64,000 nt of DNA from Bacteroidota bacterium (GCA_006218065.1 VBWE01000001.1:191063-255062); one strand, 5' to 3'; numbered from the stretch's first letter, positions 18,305 to 44,147 are shown. The notes: generated from the sequence alone by a model not told the origin. Made by a program: numbers and translations.

Positions 18305-18404
18305 GTAAGATAAATAACACGGCCAGGGTAGTTTTGTTCAACCGAGCCCAACAAAAAACCCTCCTGTTTCCAGGAAGGTTTTTCTATTCATTTATTGCGC
18401 TCCT

Positions 18405-21400
18405 TTAATTCTGCGTTTGCAAAGCGCTGATGTATTCCTCCAACGTTTCGCTGATCTTGTCCATACTGAACTGGGCCAGCGGCGTCGGGTTGATGTTATA
18501 GTATTCCGGGTTGTTGTTTTTGCGCAGCGTATAAATATGCTGCTTCCCTTCTTCGAAACGCCCGATCGGGTCGATGGTCATCGTCAGGATCTGGTAATCG
18601 AAATTCTTCGCCAGTTCGTACAGCATGTCGAAGTTTTCGCCCAGGCCGGCCACTTCGTCGATGGTCATGAAGCGGATTCCTTTTTTCACCTTCCTGTTCT
18701 TTCCGCTCAGGCGGTCGCTGTCGATGATCGAGAGTCGCGCGATACAAAGCAGGGCGAGCATGGTGTAGTTCTGCCCGTTCGATCCCGGCGCATCCTCGCC
18801 CCGCGGTGTTTTGAGGCTCATCATCAGGTCGAAATACGATTTCGGGTTCGTCAGTTTTTTCACATCCGGCCGTACGTTCTTACCGTCGCTGTGCTCGAGG
18901 AAGGCTTTCAGGATGATCGCGTCGGCTCCTTCGTTTTCTGTTTCGAACATTTTGAACAGGCCCACGTTCTGCGCTTTCGCACTGATCTGCTTGTTCAGGC
19001 TGCGGATCCAGCTGATCGGGTAACCTTTCGAGGGTTCGAAATTGATTTCCACGTAGTGTCCGCCGGAGATTTTATTCTGCTTGAAGAACTCGCGCATATC
19101 TTCCACGCGGTCGCGGTATTCGCTGTACACTTCTTCGATGCGCGAGAAAATACCCGAGATGATCTTCAGCTTGTGGTCGTTGATCTCGTTCATCTTCTGG
19201 TTGATGATGCGCAGGTGTTCTTCCACATCGCTGGCCAGGTCGCTTTCCACGTTGTCCGGGTTCTTGATGATTTTCGGAAGCATGCACTCGGCGAGCGTGA
19301 GGAAATCGTACAGGTGATTGTACTTGAGTCTTTCCTCGTCCACCAGGTTGAAATTCGGATCACGCATGATCTGGTCGAAATTCGACTCGTAGGTTTTCTG
19401 CGTGGTGATCACGGAAACTTTGGCTTTGTTCACCACGCTTTCCTCGATCTGTTCCGTGATATCCGCCGGGTTGAACTCGCCTACTTTTTCCGTGTACTGT
19501 TTATGCGATTCGCGGTAGCGCGCTTCGAGCATCGGCGCCTGTTCCATCAGGCCCACCAGGCGTGCATCGAGCCCGCCCTGCTTGCGCGAGATTTCCTGCA
19601 GGCGCTGCGTAAAGCCGTTCCAGAGCATCTTGCTGCTGCTGCCGTGTTCTTTTTCTATCGCCTTGATTTCGCTGTTCACTTTCACCTGGAACTGCTCACC
19701 TTCCGAAGGACGCATGTAATTGGCTACGTCTTTCAGCCAGTCGGCAAAACGTTCGTCGAGCGACTTGCGCTCCTGCTGGAAATTTTTCAGTTCGCGTTCT
19801 CTTTCTGGAAGGTCGGCGGTGTTGATCTGCTTGATCAGGCTTTCGATCGCCTGTTCGTTGCCCTGCGAGTTGGTGATGATGTCGTCGGCCTCTTTCAGTT
19901 TCTGCAAAGCGTCTTCCCACGACTTTTTCGCTTCCTCGTACTGCAGGCGCAGGTTGTTCTGCGGATTCACATAAAGATCGATCGTATTTTCGAATTCTTC
20001 TTTTGTGAACAGCAGCGTTTCATCCGGGTTGAATGACGCGTATTCCTTGCGGTGCATCCACACGTCGGCCACCTGCTGGTTGTAACCGAATTCGTACAGC
20101 AGGTCGCGGAGATGACGAACGTTGTTCCGTTCCGCCGTGAGTTTTTCCAGTTCCTTTTCGATCGTGTCCCCGTATTTTTTCAATTCGGATTCGATCGTTT
20201 TCGGGTTATTGAATATCTGTTTGGGCACCAGCGAAACGAATTCGCGCACGCCGCCCATATCGATCCAGATTCCTTTGTCTTCTTTTTCCGCGACTTTGAT
20301 GTTGAAGATTTCTTCCGGCTTCGGGATGTACCGGGCAAACTCGCGGTAATCTTCCGGCTTGCTCGTGGTCAGTCCCTTGAAATGCATCAGGATCGATTCC
20401 TCTTCGCGCGTCAGTTTTCCCGCGTTGCTGATCGCCCACTGCACAACCGAATCCGTGCTTTCGCTGTCGAAAAGTGGCAGGATCTGTTCGAGGCGAAGAA
20501 TATCCGTATCGAGTTGGTCCGTCAGCCCGTCATACTCGGCCTGCGCCAGCCGGTAATCCTGCGACCAGGTTGAATTCATGAACTCGTCGTAAATCGCTTT
20601 ATCGACCAGGTACTGTTCGAGTTCTTCGAATTTCTGTTTATCGCGGGCGGTTTTTTCCTGGCTGTAAAACTGGGCGCGGATGCCGTCCACTGTTTTGTAG
20701 GTGCGCAGCCAGCTTTCCACCACTTTCACTTTCGTCCATTTCGCGCTGGCTTCGTCGTAATCGGCCTGCGAGATCTGGCAGCCTTTTTCGTACGAGGCGC
20801 GATTCTTCTCGGCGAATTCGCGTTGTTTCTTTTTGTTCTCGAGATCGCGTTCGAGGCGTTCGTGTTCGCCGGTGATTTCATCCAGCTCGCGTTCGATCGA
20901 TTCGATGTTCAATTCGTTCACGCGTTTCTCGAACATGATCTGCTGCAGGTTCACATACGCTACTTCTTTCTGCGTGCGGACCAGGTCGCGGCTTACCACG
21001 TCCTTATGCTGGAACGCGTAGCCCGTTTCGAGGAACAACGAACGCTGCAAAGCCTTGTCTCTTTTCTTCTTGTCTTCGAGCAGGGCCAGCAGGCGATCCT
21101 TCTTCAGTTTGACGAGTTCGTACACGCGCGCGCGGCGCTTGTATTCTTCGTGCGCATCTTCGATTTCCTTTTTGCGCTTTTCGTATTCCTTGTTCTGATC
21201 GTCGTCGTTGGCGAAAAGGAAATTTTTCAGGTCATCGCTTTTCGAACCGATGCCTTTGCCGCGTGAAAACGACTGGAGGATCTGCGAAAAGGTTTTGAGT
21301 TTCTTTTCGTCCTGGCTCAGGTCGATACCGAGAATCTCGTTCCCGTAAAGCAGCCGGTGAAATTCGGCCGTACGGTTGTAAAAATGTTTCAGCTGGTAGC

Positions 21401-21890
21401 CGCGTTTCTCCACCACTTCCTTCATCTGGTCGATCGGCAGGATCTGTTTGTTGTACAGGAAATCCCGGTACAGCAGGAAACCGTCCATCGGTTCAAGACA
21501 GAGATCGGTGTCCGGGTTGAAATCGCCGCCCTTCTGGATGATGAACGGGTAAACGGCGCGGCTGTTCGTCTGGATATGAATGCCGACCAGGATGAATTTG
21601 CCTTTGTCCACTTCCACGTTCGCGAACGTATAGCCGAGCCCGGCCACCGCATCGTGCTTGAGCACCATGCCTTCGATGGTTCGTTTTTCGCTCGTCATAA
21701 CTTCGGTTGACGATTCCCAGTATTCTTTCTTCGCCACGAAGATGAGCTGGAGCAGGTCGGCGATGACCGATTTCCCCGATCCGGAACCGCCTGTGAAGTC
21801 GGTACGCAGCGGGTGCAGCAGGTAGTCGCAGTTGTTGTGGTAGATGATGCCTACCGTGGAAAGGGAGAAGATGCGCGGATATTGTTTCAT
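18405..21890 (-). CDS. SMC-like ATPase of MukB/MksB/JetC type (condensin / Wadjet large subunit)
   Basis: 1161 aa. The N-terminal Walker A, FSLSTVGIIYHNNCDYLLHPLRTDFTGGSGSGKSVIADLLQLIF, follows the MukB N-terminus pattern (FRSLTLINWNGFF...TTLSGGNGAGKSTTMAAF). Long coiled-coil middle section. C-terminal Walker B FMTIDEVAGL and a signature-like SNGQN. Confidence 0.7.
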   Translation of the reverse strand: MKQYPRIFSLSTVGIIYHNNCDYLLHPLRTDFTGGSGSGKSVIADLLQLIFVAKKEYWESSTEVMTSEKRTIEGMVLKHDAVAGLGYTFANVEVDKGKFILVGIHIQTNSRAVYPFIIQKGGDFNPDTDLCLEPMDGFLLYRDFLYNKQILPIDQMKEVVEKRGYQLKHFYNRTAEFHRLLYGNEILGIDLSQDEKKLKTFSQILQSFSRGKGIGSKSDDLKNFLFANDDDQNKEYEKRKKEIEDAHEEYKRRARVYELVKLKKDRLLALLEDKKKRDKALQRSLFLETGYAFQHKDVVSRDLVRTQKEVAYVNLQQIMFEKRVNELNIESIERELDEITGEHERLERDLENKKKQREFAEKNRASYEKGCQISQADYDEASAKWTKVKVVESWLRTYKTVDGIRAQFYSQEKTARDKQKFEELEQYLVDKAIYDEFMNSTWSQDYRLAQAEYDGLTDQLDTDILRLEQILPLFDSESTDSVVQWAISNAGKLTREEESILMHFKGLTTSKPEDYREFARYIPKPEEIFNIKVAEKEDKGIWIDMGGVREFVSLVPKQIFNNPKTIESELKKYGDTIEKELEKLTAERNNVRHLRDLLYEFGYNQQVADVWMHRKEYASFNPDETLLFTKEEFENTIDLYVNPQNNLRLQYEEAKKSWEDALQKLKEADDIITNSQGNEQAIESLIKQINTADLPERERELKNFQQERKSLDERFADWLKDVANYMRPSEGEQFQVKVNSEIKAIEKEHGSSSKMLWNGFTQRLQEISRKQGGLDARLVGLMEQAPMLEARYRESHKQYTEKVGEFNPADITEQIEESVVNKAKVSVITTQKTYESNFDQIMRDPNFNLVDEERLKYNHLYDFLTLAECMLPKIIKNPDNVESDLASDVEEHLRIINQKMNEINDHKLKIISGIFSRIEEVYSEYRDRVEDMREFFKQNKISGGHYVEINFEPSKGYPISWIRSLNKQISAKAQNVGLFKMFETENEGADAIILKAFLEHSDGKNVRPDVKKLTNPKSYFDLMMSLKTPRGEDAPGSNGQNYTMLALLCIARLSIIDSDRLSGKNRKVKKGIRFMTIDEVAGLGENFDMLYELAKNFDYQILTMTIDPIGRFEEGKQHIYTLRKNNNPEYYNINPTPLAQFSMDKISETLEEYISALQTQN

Positions 21891-22034
21891 CGTAGTGTAC
21901 TTCGTAAGTATGTGTTACTTCGGGCGATGCAGTGCATCGCCCTTACTTTTTGGTTCATCCTGTGAGGTGGATCACCCTTATTCTGGTTCCAGAGTAGGGG
22001 CGATCTGCCTCCGGCGGATCGCCCTATGTACTCC

Positions 22035-22724
22035 TTAGTCTTCTTCTATCGTAGTCAGGCCGCCGGTGCGTTCTTCCATCATGTTGCTTTCGTCGATCAG
22101 GCGGTCGATGTGGTGGATTTCGTACGAGTACATGGTGAACAGGCGCTCGATGGAGGGCATGATTTCGAACAGTTCCTTGTTGCGGTGATCGAAGTGAATC
22201 CAGCCGAGGCGTTCGAATTCCTTCAGCGAGTTGCGGATCCATTCATCGATTGTGTTTTCATCGATCTCCGTCGCTTCTTTCTCGCGGCGTTTGGCGAAGA
22301 GGTTGTAGATATAGCTCTTGTACTCTTCGTTGCTCTTCACCAGCTGGATAAGATCCGGCACGTAGATGTCGTTAATGAAGTATTTATCGATGCGGTGTAT
22401 CTTCAGCAGCAGGATGCCCATGAGCGTATGTTCGGGCGACAGTTTTTTGGACCGCGTTTTCACGATACCGCGGCTCTCGTCGTCCAGCTCGAGGTAGAAG
22501 TACCGCGTATAGTCCGTGCCTTTGGTTACCAGCGCGACCTTGAACAGGTTTTTGTAATACATCCGCAGCTCGTCTTCGAACTTCTCGAGGAAATTGAACA
22601 GGTCGGTCTGGTGCGGAAAGTTCTGGACATGCTGCCCGCTTTTCAGCAGGAAGTCGAGCTCCGCAAAAAGATTTTCAGCTTCGTCCGTTTCTAGGAAGCT
22701 GTATTTTTTATTTGCATTTTCCAT
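22035..22724 (-). CDS. MksE/JetB-like (MukE-family kleisin-associated) subunit candidate
   Basis: 229 aa, acidic and helical. Sits between the F-like and B-like genes in the canonical F-E-B order. Start overlaps the upstream gene by 34 nt. Confidence 0.45.
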   Translation of the reverse strand: MENANKKYSFLETDEAENLFAELDFLLKSGQHVQNFPHQTDLFNFLEKFEDELRMYYKNLFKVALVTKGTDYTRYFYLELDDESRGIVKTRSKKLSPEHTLMGILLLKIHRIDKYFINDIYVPDLIQLVKSNEEYKSYIYNLFAKRREKEATEIDENTIDEWIRNSLKEFERLGWIHFDHRNKELFEIMPSIERLFTMYSYEIHHIDRLIDESNMMEERTGGLTTIEED

Positions 22725-24088
22725 ATACCTACGTTCGGTTGTTTGGGATCGAGTTGAAATTCTTCTTTGACGGTTACTTCAAACCCGGGTTTGGATGAAA
22801 ATTCTTTGAGTACCTGCGTGGCTTCCTTGATCGCGGTTTCGAGATCGTTTTCCTTGTGCAGGATTTTGTAGAAGTATGATCCGAAATCTACTTTTTTCTT
22901 TTTCTCCAGGTCGTCTGAAATGACTTTGAACCAATGGTCGATGCGCTTTTCGCGTTCGAGCTGCGCGCGACGGTCATCCGCCTGGCGTTTCAGATCCGCT
23001 TCGTCCCAGATCATGTCGCGGACTTCCACTGCCGGCGGCTCGAGCAGGGCCAGGTAGTCCACCATAGTCAGGCGCGAACGGTCGCTGTACACATCTTTCT
23101 GCGTGATGTTGTCCGGCAGGAAAACGTCCAGCTCATGCACTTTACGGTCTTTCAGTTTCTTGGTGCGGTAGAATTTACTCTTGCTGTTTTTCAGCAGGTA
23201 GATCAGGAAGGACTCGATCTTGCGGTCGAATTCGCGTTTCTCGAAATCGTTGTACAGCTTGTTGATCTTCGGCTTGATGCGGTCGATCGTATGGCTGACG
23301 TTGATCAGGCGCTGCTCGATGTCCTTGAAGAAATTCCGCACATCGCGTTTCATCTCGCGGTATTCGAACTGTTCGGTCAGCGCAGCATCGTCGAGCAGTT
23401 GCTTGATATCGTCCTTGGAAGAAAACGCGCTCGAAAGTTTGTCGGCCTGCTCTTTGATCTTGTCCAGCAGCGCTTCGCAGCCGATCAGCAGTTCGCGGAA
23501 ATTATCCGATTCGTTCTTCACCAGGTCGTTCAGCTGCTCGATGGTATCCTCGATCTGCGAATGCAGTGCGCGGAGCTGGCTGCTGATATCATTTTTGTTC
23601 TTGAAGAACTGCGTATGGTACCAGTGGCGGAAATCGTCGATGGTCTCGAGTTTGTGCCCGAGCAGGAGGACCAGGTCGTTGAAGGTTTTCTGGATCTGCG
23701 AGGGATTGATCGCAGTGTGAACTTCTTTCTCGAGCAGGTCGCAGAAATTTTCGGCATAGGTACTCAGCTGGTACGACTTTTCCTCGATGTTCTTGTCGAG
23801 GAAGTGGCGCAGCAGGCGGTGCAGCGTTTCATCGTACTTCTGGCTTTCCTCCCCGCGGCCCGAAACCTGGCCCAGTTCGGCGAAAACCTGCTTGATCGTT
23901 TCCACGATGATACGCTCGGGAAATGCCCGGGGAATAGTGCCGGCGCGGACTTTCTGGAAAAGCGTAAGGACGATGAGTCCGTCTTCCTGCCTGGGAACCA
24001 GCAGGTTGTATCGTTCGCGCAGCAGCCTTGGAAAGTGGAGCGGGCGTCCGCCCCGCACGGCCGGCGGAATCAGTGAAAGTTGTTCCAT
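22691..24088 (-). CDS. MksF/JetA-like (MukF-family kleisin) subunit candidate
   Basis: 465 aa, largely helical. First gene of the three-gene operon ending in the MukB-like ATPase. Assignment is by size, order and context. Confidence 0.45.
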   Translation of the reverse strand: MEQLSLIPPAVRGGRPLHFPRLLRERYNLLVPRQEDGLIVLTLFQKVRAGTIPRAFPERIIVETIKQVFAELGQVSGRGEESQKYDETLHRLLRHFLDKNIEEKSYQLSTYAENFCDLLEKEVHTAINPSQIQKTFNDLVLLLGHKLETIDDFRHWYHTQFFKNKNDISSQLRALHSQIEDTIEQLNDLVKNESDNFRELLIGCEALLDKIKEQADKLSSAFSSKDDIKQLLDDAALTEQFEYREMKRDVRNFFKDIEQRLINVSHTIDRIKPKINKLYNDFEKREFDRKIESFLIYLLKNSKSKFYRTKKLKDRKVHELDVFLPDNITQKDVYSDRSRLTMVDYLALLEPPAVEVRDMIWDEADLKRQADDRRAQLEREKRIDHWFKVISDDLEKKKKVDFGSYFYKILHKENDLETAIKEATQVLKEFSSKPGFEVTVKEEFQLDPKQPNVGIWKMQIKNTAS

Positions 24089-24248
24089 AGATGTACAAAT
24101 TTATTCGCTGGAACCCTTGTATTTAGCGGTGTTGATAGATTGTTAATAGTATTCCGCCGAACGCATTTTGGTGTGGATAACTCGCAGTTTTGTTGAAATC
24201 TTTAGGGTGCGGAAACTTGTGCGGGTGCAGGAGTTTTTTATGCTGAAA

Positions 24249-24306
24249 AAGCAAACGCGGGAACAGGAAGTTTTCAATGAAAATTTCCTGCTCCCGCGTT
24301 TTTCCC
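24249..24306 (-). terminator. Hairpin terminator (bidirectional-looking) downstream of the OMP gene and upstream of the Mks-like operon
   Basis: gcaaacgcgggaacaggaa...ttcctgctcccgcgttttt. A 13-bp stem with one mismatch, flanked by A/T runs. Confidence 0.5.
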
Positions 24307-25289: not shown

Positions 25290-25709
25290 TTACAGTCCCG
25301 GTTTATTTCCCGGCAAAAACTGCTTCAGCCAGGCTTTGGCCTTTTCCTCGCTTGTAAAAATGCGCGTGGGCCGCGTGGGCTTGTGGAAATTGATGAAGAA
25401 ATTGGCGAGCAGGCGCGTAGAAGTATTTTCAACCAGGATGGCCACCGCTTCGTGCAGCCGTTCGGATTCACGCCCGGCGAGATAATGCCGCGCTTCGTTG
25501 CTCATGGATTTCAGCTTGCGGATATCGGCAAGGACTACGTACTTCTCCCCGACAAAAGTCTGCGCCCCGGTTTTGATGATATCGACCGCATCTTCTTCTT
25601 CCACTTCGGCGTCTTCGAAAAAGACGAGATAGCAATAGTCGTACTCATCTGACCAGAGTTCGGCCAGTCGGGTTGTACGGTAGTTTATTTTCTCTGTGAT
25701 TAGGGTCAT
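25290..25709 (-). CDS. Hypothetical cytoplasmic protein (about 139 aa)
   Basis: ATG at 25707-25709 (MTLITEK). The longer ORF-track version has a hydrophobic, low-complexity N-terminus. Confidence 0.4.
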   Translation of the reverse strand: MTLITEKINYRTTRLAELWSDEYDYCYLVFFEDAEVEEEDAVDIIKTGAQTFVGEKYVVLADIRKLKSMSNEARHYLAGRESERLHEAVAILVENTSTRLLANFFINFHKPTRPTRIFTSEEKAKAWLKQFLPGNKPGL

Positions 25710-25857
25710 GATGATGGATTCGCCAAGACGAACATAGCGATAAAAAATAAGAATTCCAAGACGAAGACTTAGTTTCCTTCGACTAACCGTCAACCCTGCA
25801 AAGTTTAAGAAATTGTTTCGGCTGTGTTTCCAAATCGGTTTAGGAAATGGCGGTTGC

Positions 25858-25992
25858 ACGCCTCACCTCTTTCCTCCCCAAAGGGGAGGATGCTGGAATA
25901 TTTTAAGTGACGTTTCTTTCGTTGGAACGAAAGAAACGTCACTTCCCCGGTAATACCATCCTCTCCGAAGGAGAGGAAAGAGGTGAGGCGAT
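25858..25992. repeat. 135-bp nested palindromic element (structured MITE-like element or ncRNA candidate)
   Basis: Outer 18-bp inverted repeat cgcctcacctctttcctc / gaggaaagaggtgaggcg. Inner hairpins tcctcccc-aaa-ggggagga and tcctctcc-gaa-ggagagga. Central perfect palindrome gtgacgtttctttcgttggaacgaaagaaacgtcac. Confidence 0.6.
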
Positions 25993-26512: not shown

Positions 26513-26872
26513 TCACTTTTTCATTTTCGTCGTCTTCTTCTTTTTCGCCGGGTTTGTTTTTACAAAATCAACGGCGAAAGCGATCCAGTCGCAGAGCGCT
26601 TTTTCCGACGGAAAGGCTTTTTGATTTACATACAGGAATCCTTTCATCGGCTTGCCGGTAAAATCCATCGGGCGGACGTTCGGCTTTTTCAGCAGCAGTT
26701 CGTATTGTTCATGCGAAACACGCAGCATGAGGTCTTCTTTTACAATGCCGCAGCACATTTTATCCTGTATCATGTAGCAGATTCCACCGAACATTTTTTT
26801 CTCTTCGGTTTTCACCCGCATGGTTTTGAATGCGCTACTGATGCGTTTGGCAAGAAGTTCGTCGTAGGCCAT
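26513..26872 (-). CDS. TfoX/Sxy N-terminal-domain family protein
   Basis: About 119 aa with a TfoX_N-like core (KKMFGGICYMIQDKMCCGIVKEDLMLRV) and a K-rich tail. Confidence 0.55.
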   Translation of the reverse strand: MAYDELLAKRISSAFKTMRVKTEEKKMFGGICYMIQDKMCCGIVKEDLMLRVSHEQYELLLKKPNVRPMDFTGKPMKGFLYVNQKAFPSEKALCDWIAFAVDFVKTNPAKKKKTTKMKK

Positions 26873-44075: not shown

Positions 44076-44147
44076 AGGCTCCTGGCAGAATTGAACTGCC
44101 GTCTCCGGTTTTGCAGACCAGCGCTTGGACCACTCAGCTATGGAGCC
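44076..44147 (-). tRNA. tRNA-Cys (anticodon GCA)
   Basis: Manual fold. Acceptor GGCTCCA/GGAGCC. T-arm GGCAG-TTCAATT-CTGCC. Anticodon arm CTGGT-CTGCAAA-ACCGG with U33 and A37. 72 nt. CCA is not encoded. Confidence 0.8.

What the first reader, a model, noticed from the sequence alone, without database searches (positions are those of the whole stretch)
18405..24088. Three-gene MukFEB/MksFEB-Wadjet-type SMC module with no JetD/MksG nuclease gene
The three minus-strand genes are 465 aa, 229 aa and 1161 aa, with a 34-nt overlap between the first two. They follow the canonical kleisin(F)-E-B order. The large protein has a MukB-type N-terminal Walker A (FSLSTVGIIYHNNCDYLLHPLRTDFTGGSGSGKS), a long coiled coil, and a C-terminal Walker B (FMTIDEVAGL) with a degenerate signature. 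Under established knowledge, Wadjet (JetABCD) and MksBEFG anti-plasmid systems require a fourth Toprim/topoisomerase-VI-like subunit (JetD/MksG). None is encoded within 6 kb on either side: downstream are a 173-aa two-TM protein and a CapA protein, and upstream is an OMP gene. So this is either a chromosomal MksBEF condensin, a split Wadjet whose jetD is elsewhere, or a variant that uses a different effector. The F- and E-like proteins are not obviously close to the canonical families by eye, so this may be a divergent Bacteroidota-specific clade.
Basis: partly seen in the sequence, partly recalled or inferred. Interest (0 to 1): 0.7.

Follow-up and report, generated by a model that had tools for sequence, protein, structure and literature searches.

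The report
Nuclease-less MksFEB SMC operon, Bacteroidota
These three genes encode a real but very divergent MukBEF/MksBEF-type DNA-folding (SMC) complex that has lost the DNA-cutting subunit its mobile anti-plasmid relatives carry, and it is inherited like a housekeeping gene in one uncultured Bacteroidota lineage, so it is a new example of a known kind.

Summary
Three co-directional minus-strand genes (465, 229 and 1161 aa, with a 34-nt F/E overlap) form one unit bounded by strong terminators.

- **E** matches Pfam MksE (5e-19).
- **B** matches MukB_N, and its AlphaFold model best matches MukB, then JetC.
- **F** has no sequence family, but its model's eight best PDB matches are all MukF.

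The new result comes from relatives.
- Every distant relative examined (B 26-36% identical, 48 loci across five Bacteroidota orders) is a tight four-gene F-E-B-G operon. G is a JetD-like Toprim protein. That family is mobile, and at least one of these operons is already catalogued as "FEBG" in Bürmann et al. 2025.
- The window's clade (B 70-90% identical, about 27 species genomes plus 15 metagenome contigs) never has G. It sits in conserved synteny.
- B evolves under about ten-fold stronger purifying selection than in the four-gene family.
- The clade branches inside the four-gene family.
- A sister clade has even split F-E from B.

Best reading: a Wadjet-group complex that lost its nuclease and now acts as a chromosomal loop-extruding condensin, like Pseudomonas MksBEF or MukBEF. 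A nuclease gene elsewhere in the genome could not be excluded. This is a new member of a known kind, of moderate interest.

The parts
22691..24088 (-). mksF-like kleisin gene (465 aa). It has an N-terminal winged-helix domain, a long helical middle region, a disordered linker and a C-terminal winged-helix domain.
   Evidence: ORF. No Pfam, NCBIfam, PADLOC or PDB sequence match. AF2 model pLDDT 69.9. Foldseek top 8 PDB hits are all MukF (6.7e-7 to 1.6e-3), with JetA at rank 9. dN/dS 0.00-0.10 in the clade.
22035..22724 (-). mksE-like KITE subunit gene (229 aa). It overlaps the end of F by 34 nt.
   Evidence: PF21980 MksE 5.4e-19 and PF04288 MukE 9.1e-9. NCBIfam MukE 1.3e-8, far below the equivalog cut-off. 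dN/dS 0.00-0.04.
21891..22034 (-). Structured E-to-B spacer of 144 nt with two GGGCGAT...ATCGCCC hairpins (21922-21942 and 21998-22024). Neither hairpin is followed by a U-tract.
   Evidence: RNA fold -56 kcal/mol, z = -6.2. These are the only two such sites in 64 kb, against 0.01 expected. The spacer is 22-262 nt long and not conserved in the clade. In the four-gene family, E and B overlap or abut.
18405..21890 (-). mksB-like SMC ATPase gene (1161 aa). Layout: N-head about 1-228, coiled coil, hinge about 480-560, returning coiled coil, C-head about 944-1160.
   Evidence: PF04310 MukB_N 5.9e-6. Family profile against PDB: MukB heads 1qhl 5e-6 and 3euj 1.6e-4. hhalign to E. coli MukB 96.9%, E = 1.5e-10. 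AF2 model pLDDT 77. Foldseek: MukB 9e-23, Wadjet-II JetC 7e-19. dN/dS 0.013-0.074.
21768..21791 (-). Walker A / P-loop of B (GGSGSGKS, aa 34-41).
   Evidence: G, G, G, K and S are invariant in 21 sequences (that alignment's numbering is one lower because its first row lacks Met1).
18771..18785 (-). ABC signature motif of B (GSNGQ, aa 1036-1040).
   Evidence: S, G and Q are invariant in alignment A1.
18642..18671 (-). Walker B and D-loop of B (FMTIDEVAGL, aa 1074-1083).
   Evidence: D1078 and E1079 are invariant in A1.
18345..18385 (-). Intrinsic terminator directly after the B stop codon, marking the end of the F-E-B unit.
   Evidence: 14-bp stem followed by U6; -30.2 kcal/mol, z = -6.5, 0 of 200 shuffles as stable.
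24245..24301 (-). Intrinsic terminator of the upstream 290-aa gene. It shows that F starts a new transcription unit.
   Evidence: 17-bp stem plus inner 5-bp stem followed by a U-run; -36.3 kcal/mol, z = -6.0.

Best explanation
The locus encodes a complete, functional MukBEF/MksBEF-type ('Wadjet-group') SMC complex: a kleisin F, a KITE subunit E and an SMC ATPase B. It has no Toprim nuclease.

It belongs to a Bacteroidota-specific family whose other members are mobile four-gene F-E-B-G operons, where G is a JetD/MksG-like Toprim protein. The window's lineage lost G and has since inherited F-E-B vertically at a fixed chromosomal site.

**Inferred mechanism, by analogy with MukBEF and P. aeruginosa MksBEF.**
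- B dimerises at its hinge.
- F bridges the two B heads through its C-terminal winged helix and neck contact, and dimerises through its N-terminal winged helix to give a dimer of dimers.
- E dimers sit on the middle of F.
- ATP binding and hydrolysis at the B heads drive DNA entrapment and loop extrusion.
- Without G the complex cannot cut DNA, so its output is chromosome folding and segregation rather than plasmid cleavage.

**Shown here:** subunit identities, intact ATPase motifs, absence of G nearby, vertical inheritance and strong purifying selection.

**Inferred only:** complex stoichiometry, loop extrusion and the chromosomal role.
For: **Subunit identities.**
- E is MksE/MukE.
- B is MukB-like by sequence and by fold.
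- F has the MukF fold.
- The Walker A, signature and Walker B motifs are invariant across the family.

**The family normally has a nuclease.**
- All 48 loci examined with B at 26-36% identity have F-E-B-G with overlapping genes.
- 21 of 24 G proteins hit Pfam JetD_C (best 3.8e-5) and 4 hit the Spo11/Top6A Toprim model. The Toprim E and DxD residues are invariant.
- Locus L060 is listed as an FEBG operon in Data S1 of Bürmann et al. 2025 (PMC7617805).

**G is absent from the window's clade.**
- 27 species-level genomes and 15 metagenome contigs have F-E-B and no G.
- Six-frame searches of about 0.57 Mb, plus the 15 metagenome contigs, found no remnant.

**Inheritance is vertical.**
- The order DUF7793 - FEB - CapA - SLT/LysM is conserved in at least 18 genomes.
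- At 70-80% B identity, 54% of locus pairs share at least 2 flanking genes. In four-gene pairs at 80-100% B identity the figure is about 7% (1 of 15 pairs).
- The four-gene family shows cross-order near-identity, for example Edaphocola versus Avrilella at 87% and Dysgonomonas versus Chryseobacterium at 82%.

**Selection.** At comparable dS (0.2-0.45), dN/dS of B is 0.013-0.016 here and 0.13-0.17 in the four-gene family.

**Phylogeny.**
- The G-less plus split clade is monophyletic in 100 of 100 bootstrap replicates.
- It is never sister to all FEBG members (0 of 100).
- It groups with FEBG loci L035/37/38/46 (+L036) at 55-71% support.

**Sister clade.** One MAG carries F-E on one contig and B alone on another.

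**Local context.**
- The neighbours in the window are housekeeping genes, with no integrase or defence gene.
- Terminators bound the unit.

Against: - No functional data exist. All organisms in the clade are uncultured.
- Only 64 kb of a 417-kb contig, and +/-10 kb in relatives, could be searched. A G gene elsewhere in the genome is therefore not excluded.
- The tree is a neighbour-joining tree rooted on a single very distant outgroup (E. coli MukB). Support for the exact four-gene sister group is only 55-71%.
- The F model has moderate confidence (pLDDT 70, pTM 0.35), and its TM-scores to MukF are low (0.26-0.31) because the domains are flexibly linked.
- Bacteroidota normally have Smc-ScpAB (general knowledge, not tested here). 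A second condensin would therefore be auxiliary, and its exact role is open.
- The time-dependence of dN/dS could inflate part of the contrast between the two groups.
Confidence: 0.6

Rival explanations
1. Split Wadjet. The complex still restricts plasmids by cleavage, with its JetD/MksG-like nuclease encoded at another locus in the genome.
For: The sister clade shows that genes of this system can be separated in the genome, with F-E and B on different contigs. Only 64 kb of a 417-kb contig, and +/-10 kb in relatives, could be searched.
Against: - In all 48 four-gene loci examined, G abuts or overlaps the end of B.
- No G or G remnant was found in the 64-kb window, in about 0.57 Mb of clade loci, or in 15 metagenome contigs.
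- No G lies next to the separated F-E or B genes of the sister clade.
- Conserved synteny and very low dN/dS are unlike the mobile four-gene family.
Confidence: 0.1
2. Nuclease-independent or alternative-effector defence. The complex recognises small circular DNA by loop extrusion as Wadjet does. It then silences or compacts that DNA, or hands it to an unrelated nuclease or partner, instead of using G.
For: The complex derives from a family with an anti-plasmid-type architecture. The region between B and CapA varies between genomes. A sub-lineage carries a conserved acidic gene of about 165 aa, of unknown function, 200-300 nt downstream of B.
Against: - No gene is conserved next to F-E-B across the clade. 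The window's 173-aa neighbour has a homologue in only one other locus, and a strong terminator separates it from B.
- The 165-aa gene is found in only 9 loci and is absent from the window.
- The surroundings are not a defence island.
- The selection regime and synteny resemble a core gene.
Confidence: 0.2
3. Decaying remnant. A Wadjet-like system lost its nuclease and is now non-functional.
For: The effector gene is gone. E and B are no longer translationally coupled, since a 144-nt structured spacer separates them.
Against: - Full-length intact F, E and B occur in about 40 contigs.
- dN/dS is 0.00-0.10.
- The catalytic motifs are invariant.
- B (70-75% identity) is more conserved than the flanking CapA (50-69%) and SLT (59-65%) genes.
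Confidence: 0.02
4. The large protein is a non-SMC coiled-coil ABC ATPase such as SbcC/Rad50, RecN or RecF, as some databases name its relatives.
For: JGI names several orthologues 'DNA repair protein SbcC/Rad50' or 'exonuclease SbcC'.
Against: - B matches Pfam MukB_N.
- The best profile matches in the PDB are MukB heads.
- Foldseek ranks MukB at 9e-23 and JetC at 7e-19, far above Rad50 at 5e-7 and RecF at 0.02.
- The model has a globular hinge-like domain rather than a zinc hook.
- The operon partners are a MukF-fold kleisin and MksE, not an Mre11/SbcD nuclease.
Confidence: 0.01

Closest known systems
Bacteroidota four-gene 'FEBG' Wadjet-group operons listed in Data S1 of Bürmann et al. 2025 (PMC7617805). 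Examples: Bacteroidetes bacterium 47-18 MKSF01000026.1 (operon 698), Parabacteroides sp. ASF519, Flavobacterium commune.
   Same: Same protein families for F, E and B, recovered by profiles built from the window's proteins at 1e-101 to 1e-164 for F, 1e-53 to 1e-85 for E and about 1e-277 or better for B. Same F-E-B gene order, same phylum and the same invariant ATPase motifs.
   Different: - B is only 26-36% identical to the window's B.
- These operons carry a 300-330 aa JetD-like Toprim gene overlapping the end of B, which the window lacks.
- Their genes are tightly overlapping.
- They move between orders and share no flanks.
- Their dN/dS for B is about ten times higher.
Pseudomonas aeruginosa MksBEF (nuclease-less MukBEF-like condensin; Petrushenko 2011 and Lioy 2020, as cited in PMC10586767).
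   Same: A three-gene F-E-B complex of the Wadjet group without MksG/JetD. [quoted passage not shown] The window's E matches the Pfam MksE model.
   Different: A different phylum and an independent lineage. The window's F has no detectable sequence similarity to any described MksF, MukF or JetA family. The function here is untested.
Escherichia coli MukBEF.
   Same: These are the best structural matches for both F (MukF) and B (MukB). The B head aligns to MukB residues 19-239. Same F-E-B order and no nuclease.
   Different: - MukB is 1486 aa against 1161 aa here.
- The NCBIfam MukE equivalog scores 34 bits against a cut-off of 250, and no MukF or MukB equivalog hits.
- Sequence identity in structural alignments is 11-18%.
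- No MatP or topoisomerase IV partnership is known here.
Wadjet / JetABCD types I-III, C. glutamicum MksBEFG and M. smegmatis EptABCD (anti-plasmid SMC nucleases).
   Same: The same overall SMC-kleisin-KITE architecture. JetA and JetC structures are significant fold matches. The window's nearest relatives carry a JetD-like Toprim protein.
   Different: There is no JetD/MksG in the window. The PADLOC JetA and JetB models do not hit, and JetC hits only weakly in the coiled coil (0.0035). The context is vertically inherited, not a defence island.
Smc-ScpAB (the canonical bacterial condensin).
   Same: SMC ATPase with coiled coil and hinge, a kleisin, and a winged-helix KITE partner. A presumed loop extruder.
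   Different: The kleisin is of the MukF type with its own dimerising N-terminal winged helix. The head is of the MukB type (PF04310). No ScpA, ScpB or SMC_N family hits were found.

Membership tests
MukBEF-like / MksBEF ('Wadjet group') SMC complexes | An SMC-type B subunit: split ABC ATPase head of the MukB type, a long antiparallel coiled coil and a hinge. | tested here: met
   PF04310 MukB_N at 26.6 bits against a cut-off of 23. hhalign to MukB 96.9%. The AF2 model shows head, coiled coil, a globular domain at about 480-560, returning coiled coil and head. Foldseek MukB 9e-23 and JetC 7e-19.
MukBEF-like / MksBEF ('Wadjet group') SMC complexes | Intact Walker A, signature and Walker B ATPase motifs in B. 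| tested here: met
   GGSGSGKS (aa 34-41), GSNGQ (aa 1036-1040) and FMTIDE (aa 1074-1079). The key residues are invariant in 21 sequences.
MukBEF-like / MksBEF ('Wadjet group') SMC complexes | A MukF/MksF/JetA-type kleisin with N-terminal and C-terminal winged-helix domains. | tested here: met
   Met by fold only. The AF2 model (pLDDT 70) has N-WHD, helical middle, linker and C-WHD. The top 8 Foldseek PDB hits are all MukF and JetA is at rank 9. Sequence tests were all negative.
MukBEF-like / MksBEF ('Wadjet group') SMC complexes | A MukE/MksE/JetB-type KITE subunit. | tested here: met
   PF21980 MksE 5.4e-19 (69.6 bits, cut-off 27) and PF04288 MukE 9.1e-9 (35 bits, cut-off 25).
MukBEF-like / MksBEF ('Wadjet group') SMC complexes | Co-directional F-E-B gene order in one operon. 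| tested here: met
   The order is conserved in every relative with all three genes. Terminators flank the unit.
MukBEF-like / MksBEF ('Wadjet group') SMC complexes | Assembly of an F2E4B2-type complex and ATP-driven DNA entrapment or loop extrusion. | not testable with these tools
   Needs multimer prediction or biochemistry. No multimer tool was available.
Wadjet / JetABCD / MksBEFG anti-plasmid nuclease systems | A JetD/MksG Toprim nuclease gene in the operon. | tested here: not met
   No hit in the whole window or in any of about 42 loci of the clade. It is present in all 48 distant relatives examined.
Wadjet / JetABCD / MksBEFG anti-plasmid nuclease systems | Recognition by the JetA, JetB and JetC profiles used for defence-system annotation (PADLOC). 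| tested here: not met
   F and E give no Jet hits. B gives only JetC2 at 0.0035 in the coiled coil. The four-gene relatives are also missed for F, E and B.
Wadjet / JetABCD / MksBEFG anti-plasmid nuclease systems | Mobile, patchy distribution or a defence-island context. | tested here: not met
   Synteny is conserved and neighbours are housekeeping genes. By contrast, the four-gene relatives show cross-order transfer and unrelated flanks.
MukBEF sensu stricto (gamma-proteobacterial) | Scores above the NCBIfam equivalog cut-offs for MukF, MukE and MukB. | tested here: not met
   MukE scores 34.2 bits against a cut-off of 250. No MukF or MukB equivalog hit. B is 1161 aa against 1486 aa in E. 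coli.
SbcC/Rad50, RecN, RecF family ATPases | Best similarity to Rad50, SbcC, RecN or RecF, a zinc hook or short coiled coil, and an Mre11/SbcD partner. | tested here: not met
   Rad50 scores 5e-7 and RecF 0.02 against MukB at 9e-23. RecN appears only as a P-loop match at E = 0.38. The partners are a kleisin and a KITE protein.

The most novel reading that the evidence does not exclude
An uncultured Bacteroidota lineage has independently converted a mobile Wadjet-type plasmid-restriction SMC nuclease into a vertically inherited, nuclease-less chromosomal condensin. This would parallel the proposed origins of MukBEF in gamma-proteobacteria and MksBEF in Pseudomonas. Here the four-gene ancestors still circulate in the same phylum, and the sister clade has already dispersed the genes. 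In the strongest form, the complex would be a core, essential chromosome organiser that supplements or replaces Smc-ScpAB in this lineage.
Probability: 0.3. Interest if true: 0.6.

Novelty: new member of a known kind. Interest (0 to 1): 0.4.

Why it matters
SMC specialists have proposed, but not shown, that chromosomal condensins of the MukBEF/MksBEF type arose from anti-plasmid Wadjet systems by loss of the JetD nuclease (PMC10586767).

This locus offers a compact natural comparison for that idea. Within one phylum there is a mobile four-gene nuclease form, a nuclease-less form fixed in the chromosome under about ten-fold stronger constraint, and a further form with dispersed genes.

Comparing these three could show which changes in B, E and F accompany the switch from cutting foreign DNA to organising the cell's own DNA.

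There is also a practical point. The whole Bacteroidota family is invisible to the Pfam model set for F, to NCBIfam naming and to the PADLOC JetABC profiles. Its genes are labelled 'hypothetical' or 'SbcC', so both forms are under-annotated.

The limits are that nuclease-less Wadjet-group complexes are already known, and that these organisms are uncultured.

Tried and rejected
- **Sequence-level identification of F.** Pfam, NCBIfam, PADLOC, PDB phmmer, a 30-sequence profile against the PDB, Pfam scans of all 30 members, and hhalign against E. coli MukF all gave only coiled-coil noise. Only the fold search worked.
- **G profile against PDB sequences.** No hit. G could not be modelled because structure prediction accepts only window proteins or proteins returned by the search for homologous proteins.
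- **The 173-aa downstream ORF as a replacement effector.** Rejected. It has a homologue in only one other locus (31% identity), has no family hit, and lies beyond a strong terminator.
- **A JetB-like N-terminal 'IFDR' JetD-contact motif lost in the G-less clade.** The E N-termini vary, and a Y/F-x-F-L motif is kept in both groups. No conclusion was possible.
- **Plasmid-borne relatives.** tblastn of B against 72,556 plasmids gave no match.
- **A deeper F alignment through a profile search.** It returned only three extra distant sequences, so the F model rests on 23 sequences.
- **Whether the G-less clade is already in the operon table of Bürmann et al.** Six protein accessions and three contig accessions of the G-less and split clades were not found in the held supplement text. 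One four-gene locus was found. This does not prove absence, because that table lists representatives.
- **The E-B hairpins as a conserved regulatory element.** They are not conserved in the clade.
- **Not done.** A whole-genome search for G or for Smc-ScpAB was not possible with these tools. The search of protein representatives was not used because it gives no names or genomic context.

Full report
**1. The observation**

- F: 22691-24088, 465 aa.
- E: 22035-22724, 229 aa.
- B: 18405-21890, 1161 aa.

F and E overlap by 34 nt, and a 144-nt spacer separates E from B.

B carries Walker A GGSGSGKS (aa 34-41), an S-x-G-Q signature GSNGQ (aa 1036-1040) and Walker B FMTIDE (aa 1074-1079). The key residues of all three motifs are invariant in 21 homologues that are only 27-75% identical to the window protein. 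That alignment's numbering is one lower because its first row lacks Met1.

Strong intrinsic terminators lie just after B (-30.2 kcal/mol, z = -6.5) and just upstream of F, behind the neighbouring gene (-36.3 kcal/mol, z = -6.0). F-E-B is thus one self-contained unit, and the 173-aa downstream ORF is outside it.

The region has a marked AT skew (-0.23 to -0.26). Long antisense shadow ORFs lie opposite B and F.

**2. What the three proteins are**

- **E** matches Pfam MksE (PF21980; 5.4e-19, 69.6 bits, cut-off 27) and MukE (PF04288; 9.1e-9).
- **B** matches MukB_N (PF04310; 26.6 bits, cut-off 23).
  - A family profile finds the MukB head crystal structures as its best PDB sequence matches: 1qhl at 5e-6 and 3euj at 1.6e-4.
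  - The profile aligns to E. coli MukB residues 19-239 with 96.9% hhalign probability.
  - The AlphaFold2 model (pLDDT 77) has the full SMC layout: N-head, coiled coil, a globular hinge-like domain near residues 480-560, returning coiled coil and C-head.
  - Its best PDB fold matches are MukB (9e-23), then Wadjet-II JetC (7e-19), then Smc5/6, condensin and type I JetC. Rad50 (5e-7) and RecF (0.02) are far behind.
  - The 'SbcC/Rad50' names given to some orthologues are therefore wrong.
- **F** has no detectable sequence family in Pfam, NCBIfam, PADLOC or the PDB. This holds as a single sequence, as a 30-sequence profile, and against the MukF sequence by hhalign.
  - Its model (pLDDT 70, pTM 0.35) shows an N-terminal winged helix, a long helical middle, a disordered linker and a C-terminal winged helix.
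  - Its eight best PDB matches are all MukF chains (6.7e-7 to 1.6e-3), with JetA ninth.

**3. Relatives change the picture**

The window comes from a 'Bacteroidetes bacterium' MAG (proteins FD123_166/168, accessions TND10524.1/TND10526.1).

I fetched 73 loci from species-representative genomes, seven loci by exact protein look-up and 15 metagenome loci. I then searched all their ORFs with profiles for F, E, B and a fourth protein, G, that appeared in the first distant relatives. Three groups emerged.

(i) **Four-gene group.** All 48 loci examined with B at 26-36% identity to the window's B carry a tight operon.
- The hosts include Chryseobacterium, Flavobacterium, Cellulophaga, Chitinophaga, Mucilaginibacter, Pedobacter, Pontibacter, Roseivirga, Dysgonomonas, Parabacteroides and Alistipes.
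- The operon is F (about 440-455 aa), E (about 210-226 aa), B (about 1070-1175 aa) and G (about 300-330 aa), with G overlapping or abutting the B stop codon.

(ii) **The window's clade.** B is 70-90% identical, and the clade covers about 27 species-level MAGs plus the metagenome contigs. It has F-E-B and never G.

(iii) **Sister clade.** B is about 50% identical and stands alone. In one MAG (GCA_014376525.1), F-E lies on contig JACMRI010000140 and B on JACMRI010000190, with no G beside either.

**4. G is a JetD/MksG-like Toprim protein**

- 21 of 24 G proteins hit Pfam JetD_C (best 3.8e-5, mostly below the gathering score), and four hit the Top6A/Spo11 Toprim model.
- PADLOC JetD1 reaches 2.2e-5.
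- C-E-N, G-G-x-N and D-W-D-x-x-G are invariant. I read these as the Toprim glutamate and DxD motifs; that assignment is my own reading, supported by the Toprim family hits.
- The family is not new. My locus L060 (MKSF01000026.1) is operon 698, typed 'FEBG', in Data S1 of Bürmann et al. 2025.
- The same table lists Parabacteroides sp. ASF519 with the same 439/213/1092/316-aa gene sizes as my L001. It also lists Chryseobacterium indologenes and two Flavobacterium species with family-typical gene sizes.

**5. G is truly absent here**

- tblastn of two G proteins against the 64-kb window gave nothing better than E = 0.67.
- A six-frame hmmsearch of 574 kb (the window plus all loci of groups ii and iii) found nothing below E = 1.5. 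Positive controls scored 1e-59 to 1e-113.
- The 15 extra metagenome loci also have none.

**6. Mobile against fixed**

- In the window's clade the gene order DUF7793 - F-E-B - variable 0.7-5 kb - CapA - SLT/LysM recurs in at least 18 genomes.
- At 70-80% B identity, 54% of locus pairs share two or more flanking genes.
- In the four-gene family, pairs with 80-98% identical B share essentially no flanks. Near-identical systems occur in different orders: Edaphocola and Avrilella at 87%, Dysgonomonas and Chryseobacterium at 82%.
- B (70-75%) and F (75-79%) are more conserved than the flanking CapA (50-69%) and SLT (59-65%).
- At comparable synonymous divergence (dS 0.2-0.45), dN/dS of B is 0.013-0.016 in the window's clade and 0.13-0.17 in the four-gene family. 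F and E show the same direction.
- The window's neighbours are peptidase M1, SLT/LysM, a DnaJ-domain protein, CapA, DUF7793, TfoX_N, a C5-epimerase-like protein and a methyltransferase. There is no integrase or defence gene.

**7. Direction of change**

I built a neighbour-joining tree of B on 1014 columns, rooted with E. coli MukB.
- Groups (ii) and (iii) are monophyletic in 100 of 100 bootstrap replicates.
- They are never sister to all four-gene members (0 of 100).
- They join the four-gene loci L035/L037/L038/L046 (55%), and with L036 added (71%).

The simplest history is one loss of G, followed in one branch by separation of F-E from B. The rooting rests on a single distant outgroup, so this is likely but not settled.

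**8. Mechanism**

By analogy with MukBEF and JetABC structures (PMC7617805, PMC10586767), the inferred mechanism is as follows.
- B dimerises at the hinge.
- F closes the ring at the heads and pairs two rings through its N-terminal winged helix.
- E dimers bind the middle of F.
- ATP turnover entraps DNA and extrudes loops.

With no Toprim subunit the complex cannot cleave DNA. Together with the core-gene-like evolution, this points to a chromosome-organising role like that of P. aeruginosa MksBEF, which the literature already regards as a JetABCD derivative that lost JetD.

The subunit identities, motif integrity, lack of G, synteny and selection are shown here. The assembly, loop extrusion and cellular role are inferred.

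**9. Rivals**

- **A G gene elsewhere (split Wadjet).** This cannot be excluded without the whole genome. It is disfavoured by the invariable B-G linkage in the family and by the evolutionary regime.
- **A nuclease-independent or alternative-effector defence role.** This remains possible. However, no gene is conserved beside the operon across the clade. The 173-aa ORF has one homologue. An acidic gene of about 165 aa downstream of B exists in only nine loci and not in the window.
- **Decay.** Excluded by selection.
- **A non-SMC ATPase.** Excluded by fold and by the operon partners.

**10. Novelty and score**

Nuclease-less members of the Wadjet group are established. [quoted passage not shown] The four-gene Bacteroidota relatives are catalogued.

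What appears new is this particular clade. The accessions I tested from it are not in the held supplement text, which is not proof of absence. Also new is the comparative evidence that it is a fixed, strongly constrained derivative of a mobile nuclease system, with a split-gene sister clade.

I rate it a new member of a known kind, with interest 0.4.

Noticed in passing
L007, L029, L030, L031 (B alone) and L081:1779-3835 (F-E): A sister clade (B about 50% identical to the window's B) has dispersed the operon. In MAG GCA_014376525.1, F-E lies on contig JACMRI010000140 and B on JACMRI010000190, with no G near either.
   Followed up: partly
L001, L004, L035-L080 (for example L001:8056-14219): The four-gene F-E-B-G family of Bacteroidota is missed by PADLOC JetA/B/C profiles. 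F has no Pfam family, and G mostly scores below the JetD_C gathering threshold. Proteins are annotated 'hypothetical'. The family shows cross-order horizontal transfer.
   Followed up: partly
window 21891-22034 (- strand): The E-B spacer folds very stably (-56 kcal/mol, z = -6.2). It holds the only two GGGCGAT...ATCGCCC palindromes in the 64-kb window. In relatives the spacer is 22-262 nt, often with unrelated GC hairpins, and is not conserved. It may be an RNA processing or stability element, or a small palindromic insertion.
   Followed up: partly
L005:11571-12188, L018:13712-14230, and L010, L011, L013, L022, L023, L024, L088: A conserved ORF of about 165 aa lies 200-300 nt downstream of B in nine loci of the G-less clade. 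It has a very acidic N-terminus (MNWDDEDD...F..F) followed by a helical domain. It has no Pfam family and is absent from the window. It could be an accessory factor of the complex in that sub-lineage, or simply a neighbour.
   Followed up: partly
L052:13360-14319, L054:9326-9999, L094: Some systems look broken. G is split into 209 + 74 aa in L052, E is split into 100 + 115 aa in L054, and B is in three pieces in metagenome contig L094. These may be pseudogenes or assembly errors.
   Followed up: no
L026, L034, L038 (record titles): Contigs carrying this Bacteroidota system sit in MAGs labelled Chitinophaga pinensis (B 87% identical to the window's B), Synechococcus sp. UW140 and Methanolobus sp.. 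This probably reflects mis-binning or mislabelling.
   Followed up: no
window 18417-20036 (+) and 22934-24076 (+): Long antisense 'shadow' ORFs (539 and 380 aa) lie opposite B and F. The region has a strong AT skew of -0.23 to -0.26. I take them to be shadow ORFs rather than genes, but this was not tested.
   Followed up: no
window 26513-26872 (-), 25290-25859 (-), 44076-44147 (-): A TfoX_N-domain protein (the domain of competence regulators) and a DUF7793/SpoIIAA-like protein lie a few kb upstream of F. The DUF7793 gene is syntenic with F-E-B in 11 other loci. One tRNA is the only Rfam hit in the window.
   Followed up: no
window 24096-24103 (- strand, just upstream of the F start codon): TAAATTTG lies 8 nt upstream of the F ATG. 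From my own knowledge, it fits the Bacteroidota -7 promoter motif TAnnTTTG. The sigma-70 scan found no promoter there. This would imply a very short leader.
   Followed up: no
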